59,184 nt of DNA, taken from positions 244,183 through 303,366 of the forward strand of contig WELB01000006.1 in assembly GCA_009602725.1 (NCBI GenBank), given 5' to 3'. The notes under the pieces are model-generated. The model saw only the letters and a list, made by a program, of their open reading frames with translations. It was not told the DNA's origin and did not search any database. The DNA comes from Spirogloea muscicola. Taxonomy: Eukaryota. Made by a program: the position numbers and the translations under genes. Positions 1-12,983 of the stretch are shown here, one piece after another. Position 1 is the first letter of the stretch; each line of letters starts with the position of its first letter.

Positions 1-126
<126 letters not shown>

Positions 127-245
127 CCCGCCGCCAAGCCCGCCGCCATGGCCGCAGCCGCCACGGCCGCCGGCGGCAGCGCCGAGAGCCCGTCCGGGCC
201 TCGCCGCCCTGACCCGCGCCCGCGGCGGCGGCGGCGGCGGCGCAG

Positions 246-3200
246 TGGAGGAGTTCCGGCGCGGGCAGCGGTACGCCAACTGGAAGACCAACGAGGCCAA
301 CACCGAGGAGGGCCAGGGCGGCCAGGTTCGAGTCCCACCGCCGCCGCCGCCTCCGGCCGACGCTTTTTTACTTAGTCAGACTTCCGAAGAGATGAGATTG
401 CGTCCGCCATTGCCGTTGCGGCGCAGCTGCTGTCGTCGGCGCCCTTCTTCGACGAGGCCTGGGGCGAGGGCCTCTTCACGCACACCCTCTACCGCCTCGG
501 CGACCGCCTCCCGGACTGGGTCCGCCAGCCCGCCCGCCAGCTCGTACATAGCTGTTGTAAACAGATTAAATGAAAGTACGGAGCGACCGTTTGCAGAGGC
601 TTCAAAGTAAAGGAAAAGCCCAAGTGACTTGCCGAGCCCAACGCCACAACGCAACGTCGCGGGACCTCGTGTCAGTAGCCGCTTCTCTCGTCCGTGAGGG
701 TCGAACCCAAGTCTCAAGCTGTGGACTCTCCGCTGACGTCCCCGACGGTGGTGGTGGGCACAGGTGACGCGCCTGGTGCCGGCCAACGCGATGGTGGTCG
801 ACGAGAAGAGCTGGGTGGCGTACCCCCACATGCGCTCCGTGCTCACCATCCCCTTCTTCTCCAAGGTGCGCGCTCCCAGGGCCACTGAGGCCACCTCGTG
901 GAGGTCGGACGGCCAGTCTGAGCCAGTTGTCCATCCTCATGGAGCCTTCGGGGAGGTGGGCGGTCTGCTCTCATGCCCAACTGACCTTGCCGTTGTGCGT
1001 GCTGCAGCTGCGGTACGAGATCACCACGCTCTGCCTCGATGATGACGGGTCGTCAGAGAACGTCCACAAGCTCCCGCCCGCCGAGCTGGAGCAGCGCAAG
1101 GTTGACCGCTTCGACATTGCGGGCGACAAGGTGGCCAACGGCATCTGTCTGAATAATCTCATTGATTGCATCCTGTCTGCCTTGCATTTGCATTGATGGG
1201 CGCAAGTCCTCCGTTGTGCATTTGACTCAATTAGCCCTACACACATGTTAAAGAGAAGAACCTCACAGGAAAGGAACCGTCCCTGCGCTCCTGTCCAAAT
1301 TTGTCTTGTGCACGTCTAGGAATGCTTGGAGCTAAGCACAGCAGTCCTCTGACAAGCATGCCTCTCATCATCCCTTGATAAATTTCCAAAAGCGTCGGGT
1401 CTTAGACTTCACGAGTGTAGAGAGGCGCAATTGCTGAACCCAATGACCAAGTCGCTTGGCTGGTGATTGAGACGCGGTTGTCAGAGGTTTGACTCGCCAT
1501 TGGAGGCAAACTGCTGACCCAGGTTGCACGGCGGGACTACGTGCAGGCGCTTGACCCGCCACTCTTTGCCTCTCAGAAGACAGGGTAGGTGAGCTGCACC
1601 TTTCATATGCTTGCCAGCCCACACTGGGCTGATCACAAGCAGTAGCTAAGGGACAAGTATGTAGTGCTGCATAACTTTGTCGGACAGCAAGCGATCGTTG
1701 TTGAGATCAATTTGATGCTAAGTGTGCTTCTACCGCAGCTACACAGCTATCTGATGCTGATTGCATCAACTGTGCTGGGAGTGATCAGACGAGGCCCACT
1801 GCGCCCCGGGTGGCAGTCGAACACCAAGCCCCTCATGTGCGCCTACAAGCTCGTCAAAGCGCAGGCCAAGTGAGAGCTTTACCGCAAGAGTAGCTCAGCG
1901 ATGCAACTTTCCACCAATCTGACAAACATTTCATATAGTGGGATTTTAATTTTTTTTGGATTCTTAGCAGGGGAACGGACTCCATGTGCCGGTTGAAAGA
2001 ATTTCCAAATATATGCTGTGGCCAAATGCATCAGCAGCTTTCCTCTGCGCTGCAGCAGGCTGCAGCTTTCAGAGCAGAAGCTGATGCTCGCCTCGAGATG
2101 GCATCCATTACAGCTACTGGGGAGTGCAGCGACGTGCAGAGGGCTTCATGATCTCTGGCCTCCGCTCGGTGAGGCCGTGTTCCTCGATGTCACACTTCTC
2201 ATTTCAGCTCATCCTACGCCAACGTTTCTCCTTCCTCTTCATTTGCTGACCACTTCATGCTTCGCTCGCCTTCAATAAGCCCAATTGACTGGCCAAATCA
2301 CTCATCGAGCACTCAATGATGACATGTTTCTGGCCCAGCTGTTTCTGCTCACGCATCGAAATGCTTTCTGCTACATCGATCAATGGTGGAACCTCACGTA
2401 CGAGCAGGTATGAAGGACGACAAGCATCCTGGAGTCAAGAGGAGATTTTAGATTTTAAGCATCCAGCATCCAGCATCCAGCATCCAAGCATTCATAGGTT
2501 CAGAGAATTTTTGGATGGCCAGGGCCACTTGACGACCTGGCTTACATTGACAAGACAGTCAGCTGTTGGGCTTGCCTCATAAGCCTGTGTGTGTGAGTGA
2601 ACATTATTCCTTAGTATCATCGTCTAAACGCCTCAATGCAGATTATGGAGCTTGAGATGGGAGAGAGAGCTGTACTGAACAAGAGAGTGAAGCAGCCCAA
2701 GCTGGTCATCCCCATCGATGGCCTGGCAGTTGAAGAGCAGGTGCAGAAGGATGAATGGGCCAGTGACGATGACGAAGACCTGGACATTGAATTCTTTGAG
2801 GCTGAGGTGAGCAGGCGCAGGTGCCACTGACAGTATCCTTGCTTGGTTGCCAGAAGTAGAGTCAGCCCAAGTAAACGAATGAGCCATAGCTGCTTGCTGT
2901 AGATGCTTTGGTAACACTACCATTTGACTCTTATCTCGCAGGCCGAGTGGGCTGCCCAAGAACAAGAGCTTCTGGAGGGCACCATTGCAGGTCAGAGGCT
3001 GCAATTGTACAATTGCCCTGCTTTCTGTATTGGTTTGCCGTCAACATCTTCAGTCGGAGATGCCAAAATGCTGACTTATAAGCGAGCACTTCATGGCGCC
3101 AGCTATTACACCAGGAGGAGAGGGCTCCACGTACCCAGGCAGAGGACTGGCTCCAACCCATTGCCCAGCTTGTCAGGAGCTCCGTCAGCAGAAAGATGGA

Positions 3201-6120
3201 GAGGCTTGGAGGCCTCCTTCAGTGTATTGCGAGGCTTGCCAAGAGTACTTCTGTCAGGGCTGCTATGCTCAGGTTTGCACAGTAGGCTGCTCAGAGTGCC
3301 AAGGGTCTAGGGCGCAAGATGGCTGCCTGTCACCTTTGTCAGATTGAGGCCAATTACATGAAAGGAAAGATCATTTTGCTGATAGAGCTTATATTCCTGA
3401 AGCATGAATACATACAAAGCACGTTACCAGATGTTGAGGTGCTCACGAAGCCTCTTGCTTTTGCAGATTCATGTGACGATGCAAATGCGGCAGCACCGGT
3501 TGAAGTACTTGGTGCCTACATCAAGCGCGCGGTCATCAACTTCATTGCGGGCACTGCAGCCAATTAGCCTTCAAAGCGGAGGCGCACTTGAGGCTGCTGC
3601 AGCACTGGCTCCAGTTGAGCGTACAGGATCCAGGGAGTCCGCTGGAGTATATGGAGATAATGCTGCAGCGACGCGCTCAGATGAGCAGAAGGTTCTCAGG
3701 GAGTCCTCTGATCCAGTCGAGAATAAGGTATTTCAAGTTGTCTGGCCTCATTGCAATGGAGGAATTTCACGAGGGCACGCCAGTCTCACATGTCGAGGGT
3801 ATGCTTGAGTAGCGCTGTGCAGCTTCGTCAAGCAACCTCCAAAGCTTAGCCTACCAGTTTACGTGCATACATATGCTTGGCAGGGTCTGACACGTGCTGG
3901 CTTGTTTGCTGGTCAGCCCGTTGAGCTCTCGGCAGAGTTGGTGGCTACCATGCTAGGCATATACAAGTACGGCTCTTCGTCCACCTCTTATGCATCTGAG
4001 AAGAGCAGTCTTGGGTACTACTTACTGCATACGACTTACTGGCTTGAAGGTGAAGGTCCAAAGCATTTGCAGGATGTGCAACAAAGCACAAGGTCAGCCT
4101 AAGTGGTCCAGAGTAACTTATTTGGAAGATTGTAATCTATCCGTTGATGCCATTGCAGGAAGCTTCTACCACCAGATCGATCCCCTGCGCAGAAGGCATC
4201 CAGCCTTGACCCGTATGGATCTCGCAGCGAAGTGGCAATTGGCAGCATTGGTCCATATGGGGAGCTAACAGAGGTCTCGTCCATGGGCGACAAGGCGAGC
4301 TCCTCAGTTGTCGCAAAGGAGTGCTTGGTTGCCAGGCATGCTTAATACCTCGTCCTGCCCTAACCATATATCGGCGTTGCATATGTTAAGCACCGTGTCT
4401 GCTGCTGAGAAATTGCAGAAGTGGCCTATTCGCTCGTCAGGGCTGCATATACGAAGCATGTCATTCTCCCACATTGGAGTGCCTGACTTCAGGAGACTTC
4501 TGAAAGGGCATCTGCGATGATAAGAGAGGATTAGGAAGGTGGTGAGGACAGCCTTGTCGCGCTGAGCGCCTTCCTTATGCTGCATTTGAAGTATATGAGC
4601 ATTGTGACTTGACAGGCGTCTGGTGGAACAACTGGTTCATGTCGTTCCTCGACTTCTCACGCATGAGGAGCGCTTGGCTTTCTGGATCAACATCTACAAT
4701 GCACTTCTTATGCAGGTCTTATGATCTTAGAAAATTACCTGTTTGATAGGTTTTATATACCATAGTGTAACTTGCATCTTGATTTGATGTATGGTGCCTT
4801 TGCTGTTGAGGCAGGCCAGAGCCAGCTGGCCACCTTGTGCCACTGAAGAAGACGGCAACTCAGCTTTAGCTGTGCTTCAATGGCAGGCCTATCTTGAGCA
4901 AGGCATACCAGGCAACCACTACAAGCGAGTCAACCTCATGGCAAAGGCCACTTACTCTATTGGCGGGCTCAACTTCAGTGCCCTTCAGATAGAGCACGCA
5001 GTGTTGCGAGCTTGCTCCTCTCGGCCTGCCCTTGTAAATTCCCTCTGCGAACCTCAGAGGCTGTGTGCACGTTGCTTCTGATGATTGTGGAATGATTACT
5101 GTAGATCTTAAACTAGAAAGAATGTTGTGCAGCATCTGTGACTGGTTCATGCTCTGATGCCTTCTTTGCACATATTTCACGCTGACACACGGTTATTCAT
5201 CTAGTGCATAGTTTCTGCATATCTTGAAAATTGCTAGAATGGGTTTCTGCATCTACCTGATCGATTTCATATTGTGCTGTCTGCAGGCTGGTCTTCTGCC
5301 AGTTCACAAGTTCAAGAACTCTGATGAGCGCCTCGCATGTGCCCTGGATCGTCCCGAGCCTCTTGTTAGCTTTGCCCTGTGCTCCGGCTGCAGATCAGCC
5401 CCAGCTGTACGCTACAAAGCCCCACCTAGTGTCTGCTGGAGTGCCATGCAAGGAGCACAACAGGCCTCTCAGTAGCACATCATAGAGTCGTCCAACTAAC
5501 TGCAAGCTTGGCCAAGTAGAGAAGCTCTTCCTGAGACATGCCTGCTGAAACAGGCTGACAGTTCCAATGTGTGTGCAAGTTGACCAGGTCCGTTTGTATT
5601 CGGCGAGCAATATCAGTAATGAGCTGCAACATTCAGCCCGAGACTATCTGCAAGCCGCCATCGGTCTGAGCAAGAGTGGCAGGATCCTCGTTCCAAAGAT
5701 CCTGCACTGGTATGCCAGGGACTTCTCGGACGATGCATTCTCGCTTCTGTCGTGGATCTTTGCGCGGCTTCAGCCCTTGCAGGTATGCTTCGTCCTCTCC
5801 GCATAACATAATTTCTTGGCACAAATTCTAGACATTATTCATTCGTGGTTCAAGTCCAAAGTCGAACTTTTGATACCATGACATTTCACATACTCATTTT
5901 GTGCTCTCTTACTTTGCCAACATGAAGAGCATGCAGTGACAGCAGTGCTCACAATTTGCAACTACTCATCATGGTGTATGCGCCAAACGAGCTGATGTGT
6001 TGTTGCGTGCTCAATAACCAGCATGAGGTCCTTCAAGAGAAGATGCCAAAGAGGCCCAAGGATGCATCCAGGTCTATGCTCGTAGTTCCATACGACTGGA
6101 ACTTCAGGTATGTATTGTGA
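246..6120 (+). CDS. Multidomain protein: START-like phosphatidylinositol transfer protein domain (IP_trans) + acidic tract/FFAT-like motif + B-box zinc finger + DUF547; true 5' end not resolved
   Basis: Hand-spliced in-frame exons: 246-325, 427-519, 764-865, 1008-1130, 1523-1584, 1789-1869, 2114-2168, 2339-2407, 2642-2806, 2942-2990, 3103-3272, 3467-3727, 3917-3966, 4159-4335, 4616-4715, 4887-5033, 5287-5406, 5588-5782, 6022-6120 (TGA). PITP motifs: EEFRRGQRY, GLFTHTLYRL, DEKSWVAYP, ENVHKL, KTGRGPL, MCAYKLV, YWGVQ, HRNAFCYIDQW. B-box: CPAC..CEAC..CQGC..H..H. DUF547: LAFWINIYNAL, IEHAVLR, PEPLVSFALC, VPKILHWY, PYDWNFRY. Confidence 0.85.

Positions 6121-7337: not shown

Positions 7338-12983
<5,646 letters not shown>

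What the first reader, a model, noticed from the sequence alone, without database searches (positions are those of the whole stretch)
246..6120. Unusual architecture: animal-type PITP + FFAT-like motif + B-box + DUF547 in one reading frame
Seen: 19 exons splice in compatible phase with no stop, from a near-complete START-like PITP domain through an acidic tract ending EFFEAE, a B-box zinc finger and a full DUF547 domain. Established: PITP followed by an acidic FFAT motif is the layout of animal RdgB/Nir (PITPNM) membrane-contact-site lipid exchangers; land plants use Sec14-type PITPs; the plant DUF547 proteins I know carry a MIP1 zipper or glutaredoxin/DEP domains. Inference: this may be an undescribed lipid-transfer tether that binds the ER through VAP27 and uses DUF547 as the second-membrane or cytoskeleton anchor, which would also hint at a function for DUF547.
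Basis: partly seen in the sequence, partly recalled or inferred. Interest (0 to 1): 0.9.

Follow-up and report, generated by a model that had tools for sequence, protein, structure and literature searches.

The report
Inositol-blind lipid carrier of early plants
This algal gene joins an animal-style lipid-carrier domain, an ER-docking-like motif, a zinc finger and a domain of unknown function in one protein that mosses and liverworts also have, and because the carrier lacks two residues needed to hold phosphatidylinositol it likely moves or senses a different lipid, probably phosphatidic acid, where the ER meets the plasma membrane.

Summary
The gene is real. Spliced contigs of one run show 13 of 18 junctions as GT..AG joints and support 4 more indirectly. 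The PITP + FFAT-like + B-box + DUF547 layout is not an algal oddity: it recurs in Chlorokybus, Closterium, Spirogloea, three mosses and three liverwort genera, and 11 of the first 11 introns match a Sphagnum-type locus in position and phase. Corrections: exon 13 is probably 3884-3966, intron 14 has a GC donor, and the first exon lies outside the window. DUF547 folds confidently but matches no solved structure. Best reading: a VAP27-docked ER-plasma-membrane shuttle for a non-PI lipid, likely PA (0.42); a lipid-sensing switch is the main rival. Ligand, VAP binding and localisation are untested. Not found in print.

The parts
124..245 (+). 3' part of intron 1 (GC-rich, acceptor AG at 244-245); the exon with the first 14 codons is not in the window
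   Evidence: Phase-1 intron at codon 15 in Sphagnum-type locus L089; no similarity of 124-245 to the homologous N-terminus
246..2700 (+). START-like PITP domain, exons 246-325, 427-519, 764-865, 1008-1130, 1523-1584, 1789-1869, 2114-2168, 2339-2407 and start of 2642-2806
   Evidence: Pfam IP_trans on exons; joints; Marchantia orthologue model matches PITP-alpha 1T27 at TM 0.87, rmsd 2.0 A
478..486 (+). T59-H-T61: T59 kept, inositol-binding K61 replaced by Thr
   Evidence: Numbering from gap-free alignment of P0002 to rat PITP-alpha
803..817 (+). E86...V90: E86 kept, inositol-binding N90 replaced by Val
1847..2120 (+). K195 (1847-1849, kept) and membrane-docking W203-W204 equivalent, here Tyr-Trp (2115-2120)
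   Evidence: roles of these residues recalled from PITP-alpha literature
2765..2944 (+). Acidic tract (2765-2788) and FFAT-like core EFFEAEA (2789-2806 plus 2942-2944, split by intron 2807-2941)
   Evidence: Best FFAT-like site of the protein in 17 of 17 family proteins, same aligned place; junction by loose end and shared intron
3162..3499 (+). B-box type zinc finger, C-x2-C...C-x2-C-x4-C-x2-C...H...H, across intron 3273-3466
   Evidence: 8-ligand pattern in 16 of 17 proteins; PF22586 hits; joint 3272/3467
3500..3916 (+). Poorly conserved linker (rest of exon 3467-3727, start of exon 3884-3966)
   Evidence: pLDDT under 50 in the Marchantia model
3917..4335 (+). N-terminal helix and DPYG...GPY segment of the DUF547 unit (exon 3884-3966 and exon 4159-4335; GC donor at 4336)
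4616..6120 (+). DUF547 core and conserved C-terminal extension with a basic loop; exons 4616-4715, 4887-5033, 5287-5406, 5588-5782, 6022-6120 (stop TGA 6118-6120)
   Evidence: Pfam; four GT..AG joints; basic loop

Best explanation
It is a spliced gene of an ancient streptophyte family (PITP, FFAT-like motif, B-box, DUF547) whose lipid pocket lacks K61 and N90, and it likely works as a contact-site lipid shuttle that is predicted to dock on ER VAP27 through the FFAT-like motif, would bind the plasma membrane through DUF547, and likely carries a non-inositol phospholipid, most likely phosphatidic acid, between the two membranes. Shown: one reading frame, splicing, family-wide conservation, PITP fold, loss of two inositol-binding residues, retention of the phosphate-binding and membrane-docking residues. 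Inferred: (a) no PI transport, from K61A and N90F mutants of RdgB; (b) PA as cargo, because those mutants kept PA transfer and positions 95 and 225 resemble the PA-carrying class II more than the PC-carrying class I (roles of 95 and 225 recalled); (c) VAP27 binding, from motif score and position; (d) plasma-membrane binding by DUF547, from UCG and conserved basic residues; (e) a closed resting state with PITP packed on the B-box/DUF547 unit that would open on the membrane, from the pTM of one model. It would be the PA-return half of the RdgB/Nir cycle, with PI supply left to Sec14-type or canonical PITPs.
For: Family-wide architecture: 29 of 253 proteins held had both PITP and DUF547, and all 29 also the B-box (many are near-copies); named lineages. 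One intron-less 2,999-nt moss-like contig carries all parts (L081, two frameshifts). K61: 0 of 36 family rows against K/R in 84 of 84 other PITP rows; N90: 3 of 42 against 85 of 86; kept: T59 35 of 36, E86 41 of 41, K195 42 of 42, T/S97 42 of 42, Q22 31 of 34, Y-W docking pair 41 of 41 and 40 of 41. RdgB K61A and N90F lose PI binding and transfer, PA transfer largely unaffected at saturation (PMC4582195 passages). Position 225 is T/A in 40 of 40 family rows (F in 58 of 88 others); C95 in 2 of 42. FFAT-like score 1.5-3.0 in 17 of 17, at most 2.5 in 15 of 17, against 6 of 139 other proteins. UCG (At2g23700, MIP1+DUF547) is at the inner-lateral PM without TM helix or lipid anchor; DUF547 also occurs among Entamoeba PTEN homologues (figure legend) and with a DEP domain in class IV glutaredoxins. 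Eight DUF547 columns are K/R in at least 80% of 108 rows; net charge positive in 82 of 108.
Against: No binding, transfer or localisation data exist for any member. PA binding was reduced in all RdgB pocket mutants and K61A bound more PC, so PA is not singled out. The motif departs from EFFDAxE at positions 4 (E) and 7 (A/M/V in 15 of 17); the matrix used was adapted by me at positions 1, 4, 7 and the tract; with E at position 4 costing 1, only 11 of 17 stay at 2.5 or better. The segment is modelled as a low-confidence helix and carries a further conserved Trp/Leu, which could mean intramolecular packing rather than VAP binding. As of PMC11631713 no plant VAP partner had a proven FFAT. UCG may reach the PM through its zipper or a partner, not DUF547. 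If PITP is clamped to DUF547 (pTM 0.66) free shuttling needs an opening step that nothing here shows. No DDHD or LNS2 domain.
Confidence: 0.42

Rival explanations
1. Lipid-sensing switch: the PITP domain binds a lipid but does no net transport; it sits on DUF547 and turns its activity (membrane or protein binding, or an unknown catalytic or thiol function) on or off, as START domains do in some enzymes (recalled).
For: pTM 0.66 for the 847-residue Marchantia model is above what independent domains would give (0.40-0.50) and within the range for domains placed together (0.59-0.71), under assumed error values. The pocket is remodelled at many positions (R23 34 of 34, N26 34 of 34). Bacterial DUF547 has C-x4-C in 68 of 75 parsed proteins, and an FAD disulfide oxidoreductase lies near it in 9 of 80 loci; plant DUF547 is fused to glutaredoxin.
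Against: The second Cys of the bacterial motif is absent from all 10 fused proteins shown, and Chlorokybus and P0034 have no Cys there at all. Docking residues and the FFAT-like motif, which a shuttle needs, are kept. The inter-domain contact rests on one global score; no error map was seen.
Confidence: 0.25
2. Contact-site shuttle, but with another cargo or second membrane: PC, PE or DAG, or delivery from ER to plastid, Golgi or cell plate.
For: K61A raises PC binding in RdgB; Y/F63 and E86 are kept; bulky hydrophobic residues at 90 and 95 would also suit DAG (inference). Only one DUF547 protein has a reported location.
Against: C95 and F225, linked to PC handling in class I PITPs (recalled; one search found no paper to confirm), are lost; K195, Q22 and T97, which hold the phosphate (recalled), are kept, which argues against DAG.
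Confidence: 0.18
3. Still a PI/PA exchanger like RdgB/Nir, with the inositol site rebuilt (for example invariant R23 or K/R28 replacing K61).
For: T59, E86 and K195 kept; R23 invariant in 34 of 34 rows; layout PITP then FFAT as in PITPNM1 and Diphylleia P0141.
Against: R23 also occurs in Diphylleia PITPs that keep K61 and N90, so it did not arise as a replacement; two independent essential residues are lost; whether R23 faces the pocket was not seen.
Confidence: 0.1
4. Two neighbouring genes (a PITP gene and a DUF547 gene) joined only by prediction.
For: No contig spans the window's whole mRNA; Mesostigma and one Closterium model stop after the B-box, and a Calypogeia paralogue has PITP alone.
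Against: Contigs cross from the B-box exon into the DUF547 helix exon with 55-61 letters on the short side; same fusion annotated independently in 9 genera; intron-less contig L081; family PITPs form one clade (98/94).
Confidence: 0.02

Closest known systems
RdgB-alpha / Nir2-3 (PITPNM1-2), class IIA PITPs
   Same: N-terminal PF02121 domain followed by an acidic tract and FFAT-type motif; small residue at 225 and no C95; C-terminal module thought to bind the second membrane (PMC7387695 passages).
   Different: No DDHD or LNS2; B-box and DUF547 instead; K61 and N90 lost; motif is EFFEAxx, not EFFDAxE; not nested among animal RdgB/Nir in the tree, though one clade with them is not rejected (p-AU 0.16).
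PITP-alpha/beta (class I) and the single-domain green-plant PITP (Klebsormidium P0190, rice Os03g17800)
   Same: Same fold (TM 0.87 to 1T27) and about 36% identity.
   Different: These keep T59, K61, E86, N90 (P0190); no FFAT-like site (score 4.5), no B-box or DUF547; separate branch in the tree (one clade not rejected, p-AU 0.13).
MIP1-zipper + DUF547 proteins (UCHIGAWA/At2g23700, ternary complex factor MIP1)
   Same: Whole C-terminal unit, including the helix and DPYG segment before the Pfam domain.
   Different: Coiled-coil zipper replaced by PITP, FFAT-like motif and B-box; fused DUF547 domains fall outside the main unfused clades.
Class IV glutaredoxins (GRX + DEP + DUF547) and Entamoeba PTEN homologues with DUF547
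   Same: DUF547 joined to a membrane- or lipid-related module.
   Different: Different partner domains; no transfer domain.

Membership tests
PITP domain family (PF02121) | START-like PITP fold and profile match | tested here: met
   P0001 E 4e-52; Marchantia model against 1T27 E 1e-23, TM 0.87
PITP domain family (PF02121) | Four inositol-binding residues T59, K61, E86, N90 | tested here: not met
   Window T, T, E, V; family K61 0 of 36, N90 3 of 42
PITP domain family (PF02121) | Phosphate-binding Q22, T97, K195 and aromatic docking pair 203-204 (roles recalled) | tested here: met
   Q22 31 of 34, T/S97 42 of 42, K195 42 of 42, Y203 41 of 41, W204 40 of 41
PITP domain family (PF02121) | Transfers phosphatidylinositol | not testable with these tools
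   Needs an in vitro assay; predicted absent
RdgB/Nir (PITPNM, class IIA) | FFAT motif C-terminal to the PITP domain | tested here: inconclusive
   FFAT-like site at this place in 17 of 17, but D4 is E and E7 is missing in most; matrix partly assumed
RdgB/Nir (PITPNM, class IIA) | DDHD and LNS2 domains | tested here: not met
   No PF02862, PF24694 or PF24695 hit in P0001, P0031, P0034, P0180, whereas Diphylleia P0141 and owl PITPNM1 have them
RdgB/Nir (PITPNM, class IIA) | PITP domain descends from the RdgB/Nir clade | tested here: inconclusive
   Weak, open grouping with Diphylleia RdgB-like rows (84/71); AU tests reject neither an RdgB origin (0.16) nor an origin with canonical green PITPs (0.13)
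RdgB/Nir (PITPNM, class IIA) | VAP-dependent PI/PA counter-exchange at ER-PM contacts | not testable with these tools
   No VAP sequence was held and no assay is possible
FFAT motif | Aromatic at 2, acidic at 4, A/C at 5, upstream acidic tract | tested here: met
   Window DEDLDI-EFFEAEA; F/Y at 2 in 17 of 17, A at 5 in 16 of 17, D/E at 4 in 17 of 17
FFAT motif | Acidic residue at position 7 | tested here: not met
   A in the window; E only in Mesostigma and P0034, 2 of 17
FFAT motif | Lies in an unstructured cytoplasmic stretch | tested here: inconclusive
   pLDDT 41-50 over residues 271-310 of the Marchantia model, drawn as a helix
B-box zinc finger | Eight Cys/His ligands in B-box spacing | tested here: met
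   16 of 17; PF22586 precomputed on moss and liverwort members, below cut-off in P0001
MIP1-zipper + DUF547 family | DUF547 domain | tested here: met
MIP1-zipper + DUF547 family | N-terminal Lzipper-MIP1 (PF14389) | tested here: not met
   No hit in P0001, P0031, P0034, P0180
Class IV glutaredoxin | GRX and DEP domains | tested here: not met
   No hit
Any solved fold for DUF547 | Structural match in the PDB | tested here: inconclusive
   Model pLDDT 89.6; no Foldseek match at E 0.001; best VIA Z 3.8 over 52 residues, rmsd 2.7, of 48,161 chains

The most novel reading that the evidence does not exclude
Streptophyte algae and bryophytes run an undescribed ER-plasma-membrane lipid route: a naturally PI-blind PITP that returns phosphatidic acid to the ER, docked by a plant-encoded FFAT motif on VAP27 and gated by DUF547, which would be a new-fold acidic-membrane-binding module shared with UCG-type polarity proteins, class IV glutaredoxins and amoebal PTENs; flowering plants lost the route.
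Probability: 0.25. Interest if true: 0.85.

Novelty: new variant of a known kind. Interest (0 to 1): 0.68.

Why it matters
A 2023 paper states that no class I or II PITP had been reported in plants (PMC10255633 passage), and a 2024 paper that no plant VAP partner had a proven FFAT motif (PMC11631713 passage). This family offers both, in two easy knock-out models (one hit in Marchantia, Mp7g02200; two in Physcomitrium). It is a natural PITP with the inositol site removed, which tests what the fold carries without PI. It gives a direct handle on DUF547, a widespread domain with a confidently predicted structure and no solved relative, now tied to plasma-membrane polarity through UCG. Its presence from Chlorokybus to bryophytes and reported absence of any such gene from rice and Arabidopsis makes it a marker of how contact-site lipid traffic changed during land-plant evolution.

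Tried and rejected
No whole genome is held, so gene copies and VAP27 genes of this organism could not be counted. A closer read-laying of the middle of the gene was not obtained, so junction 3966/4159 and the window copy's own 3727/3884 junction rest on the divergent copy and on P0001. The complex predictor was not available, so the PITP-DUF547 contact was not tested with controls; no VAP27-FFAT model could be made. Fold searches for DUF547 found nothing usable in PDB (Foldseek, VIA wide) or viral models; this does not show a new fold. ESM Atlas returned only DUF547 clusters for the C-terminal part and no usable hit for P0034. Earlier scan notes: none. Exon 13 as 3917-4092 was dropped: contigs stop at about 3965, P0001 lacks the 42 codons, and 14% of 126-nt intron windows are stop-free by chance. 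An ATG at 148 as start was dropped: no donor in the right phase, no homology. Recent tandem duplication from the neighbouring DUF547 gene was dropped: the two domains are not nearest relatives. A spliced alignment of L085 to P0183 for the DUF547 half failed (score -82) and was discarded, so shared introns are shown only for the first 11. Absence from vascular plants is not established by my searches: no named tracheophyte was among 10 hits or 82 hits, but one search missed 4 of its own 8 query proteins and scored only 7,995 candidates, and one search shows one protein per 50% cluster without names. The original FFAT matrix paper was not held; the roles of C95 and F225 could not be confirmed from a paper.

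Full report
1. Observation. The window is eukaryotic DNA with short introns and GC-rich gene starts. Nineteen exons from 246 to 6120 join without a stop. Pfam finds IP_trans in the first half and DUF547 in the second (17 exons scanned). The only run that holds part of the stretch (X1, share 0.19, labelled 'RNA?', contigs only, one study) gave 40 laid records; 13 of the 18 junctions appear as exact GT..AG joints, three more as loose ends that read into the next exon, and two contigs of a divergent copy cross from the B-box tail exon into the exon with the first DUF547 helix with 55 and 61 letters on the short side. Of 34 coding differences listed there, 25 are synonymous (40 of 48 rows were shown, 6 lay behind the stop and were left out). 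Several copies are mixed in the run, so the joints show splicing of this gene and its near copies, not of the window's copy alone.

2. Corrections. The last long exon found one protein among 36 candidates: P0001, 645 residues, PF02121 + PF04784, named Spirogloea muscicola by EukProt, 92% and 94% identical to the window in the two domains. The window is therefore most likely another copy in this zygnematophyte alga or a close relative (genome triplication in this species is recalled, not tested). P0001 and the contigs move exon 13 to 3884-3966; intron 14 uses a GC donor; the revised frame has 742 residues. The first 14 codons lie outside the window.

3. It is an old family. Searches with P0001 and with a family alignment returned the same architecture in Physcomitrium (two paralogues), Ceratodon (two), Sphagnum (two), Marchantia (Mp7g02200), Riccia, Calypogeia and Closterium, Chlorokybus and an unnamed protein P0034; Mesostigma has the PITP, motif and a partial B-box in a model that ends there. 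Of 253 proteins held, 29 had PITP and DUF547 and all 29 had the B-box (many are isoforms or close Sphagnum relatives). All are labelled hypothetical, uncharacterised or by one domain. An intron-less 2,999-nt moss-like contig carries the whole layout, with two frameshifts that may be assembly errors. The first 11 introns of the window match a Sphagnum-type genomic locus in position and phase, 11 of 11; that locus has one more intron, and one at codon 15. The 16 family PITP domains form one clade (98/94) that roughly follows species order (48 rows). The 14 fused DUF547 domains need two label changes on a quick tree of 59 rows (40 of 97 unfused rows sampled), and one clade is not rejected (p-AU 0.42). 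Where the PITP came from is open.

4. The pocket. The moss protein aligns without gaps to rat PITP-alpha over residues 1-103, which fixes the numbering. In Drosophila RdgB, K61A and N90F lose PI binding and transfer and fail to rescue; PA binding falls but PA transfer is largely unaffected at saturation; K61A binds more PC (PMC4582195, passages). K195, Q22, T/S97 and the aromatic docking pair are kept; position 225 is T/A and C95 is almost always lost, as in class II (meaning recalled). The fold is intact: the Marchantia model matches 1T27 at TM 0.87 and rmsd 2.0 A. So the domain should still dock and hold a phospholipid, but likely not PI. A canonical PITP with all four residues exists beside it in Klebsormidium and a single-domain IP_trans gene in rice, lost in Arabidopsis (PMC10255633 and PMC8831610, passages).

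5. The acidic motif. With the matrix of PMC7705450 Table EV4 (supplement read), changed by me to a conventional form, the motif is the best FFAT-like site in 17 of 17 family proteins, always at the same place, scores 1.5-3.0, at most 2.5 in 15; 6 of 139 other proteins reach 2.5; shuffles reach the score in 0-9%. A score under 3 is called strong in PMC8306308 (passages). P0034 has SFMDALE and Diphylleia P0141, a PITP-LNS2 protein, EFYDALE, which suggests descent from a true FFAT. Against: E for D at position 4, no acid at position 7 in 15 of 17, and a low-confidence helix with a further conserved Trp or Leu.

6. B-box and DUF547. Eight zinc ligands are present in 16 of 17 proteins. A plant DUF547 unit (P0104, 108-row alignment) folds at pLDDT 89.6 and pTM 0.88 and has no match in PDB or viral models. 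It keeps eight mostly invariant K/R columns and is net basic in 82 of 108 rows. Arabidopsis UCG (MIP1 zipper + DUF547) localises to the inner-lateral plasma membrane without a TM helix or lipid anchor (bioRxiv 10.64898/2026.08.17.745151, passages; supplements closed). DUF547 is listed among the domains of Entamoeba PTEN homologues (bioRxiv 10.1101/2021.11.29.470399, one legend) and follows GRX and DEP in class IV glutaredoxins (PMC13621322, passages). In 80 bacterial loci (best 80 of 384) DUF547 has C-x4-C in 68 of 75 parsed proteins; 9 loci hold an FAD disulfide oxidoreductase and 7 a VTT (DedA-type) protein within 4 kb; the motif is not kept in the fused family. The full-length model has pTM 0.66 with 567 of 847 residues at pLDDT 70 or more; a rough calculation puts independent domains at 0.40-0.50 and jointly placed ones at 0.59-0.71. 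This hints at a compact PITP-B-box-DUF547 unit; it is one score with assumed errors, and the controlled test was not available.

7. Mechanism. Most likely (0.42): FFAT-like motif on ER VAP27, DUF547 on the acidic plasma membrane, B-box as structural or oligomer element, PITP carrying a non-PI phospholipid, probably PA, with a closed state between cycles. Rivals: sensor without transport (0.25), other cargo or membrane (0.18), rebuilt PI/PA exchanger (0.10), two genes (0.02). Every functional step is inferred.

8. Known systems and print. It works like RdgB/Nir in layout (PMC7387695, passages) but fails two membership features: DDHD/LNS2 and the inositol residues. Full-text searches found 0 papers with both DUF547 and 'phosphatidylinositol transfer'; 28 papers name DUF547 (26 listed, titles and abstract starts seen); searches listed none on this architecture. 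Passages of PMC2577659, bioRxiv 10.1101/2023.06.15.545175 and 10.1101/2025.03.13.638958 (a Sec14-type PITP) concern other proteins. Subscription journals and preprint supplements were not searched, and domain databases already list the architecture automatically.

9. Verdict. Observation confirmed with small corrections; interpretation partly supported. A new variant of multi-domain PITP, conserved from the earliest streptophytes to bryophytes, with a remodelled pocket and a tractable test in Marchantia. Interest 0.68.

Noticed in passing
window 7339-12983 (+): The next gene downstream is a second DUF547 gene with a coiled-coil N-terminus (no PF14389 hit on two single exons) and a gap of Ns inside an intron; its DUF547 exons join in frame and share three intron sites with the fused gene, but it is not the fused gene's nearest relative.
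   Followed up: partly
window 1-123: A pure run of T at the start of the window, directly upstream of the missing first exon; probably an assembly end, not biology.
   Followed up: no
window 3645-3710: The window copy has 22 more codons in the linker than P0001 and two contigs, bounded by a short direct repeat (RES...RES); an indel between gene copies.
   Followed up: partly
P0006 / P0027 (Calypogeia fissa): A stand-alone paralogue of the family PITP (N61, I90, but C95) without FFAT-like motif, B-box or DUF547, beside the full-length P0179.
   Followed up: partly
P0034 (unnamed, 861 aa): Most distant full-length member, long branch outside the named streptophytes; keeps N90 and a near-canonical FFAT core but has Q59 and A61. 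Suggests K61 was lost before N90; its lineage is unknown.
   Followed up: partly
L006:2459-4636, L075:922-3096, L028:23-1018: Bacterial DUF547 at the C-terminus of about 725-residue proteins whose N-terminus has a motif I recall from glycoside hydrolases of the MGH1/GH63 type; not scanned.
   Followed up: no
L041:4849-7041 and 11 other bacterial loci: DUF547 genes beside an FAD disulfide oxidoreductase and/or a VTT (DedA/TVP38) membrane protein, once fused to each other; 12 of 80 loci have one or both.
   Followed up: partly
P0064 (unnamed, 783 aa): A eukaryote-like protein made of two tandem DUF547 units.
   Followed up: no
window 14879-48618: Ordinary genes by Pfam on 63 open frames: alpha-L-arabinofuranosidase (-, 14.9-15.4 kb), GAPDH (-, 21.6-21.9 kb), CAAX protease-like (+, 28.6-29.1 kb), signal peptide peptidase (+, 38.8-39.2 kb), PRA1 (-, 41.7-43.1 kb), adenylate kinase (+, 43.6-44.3 kb), CaMKII-association-domain protein (+, 45.9-46.3 kb), alpha-SNAP (+, 48.2-48.6 kb).
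   Followed up: no
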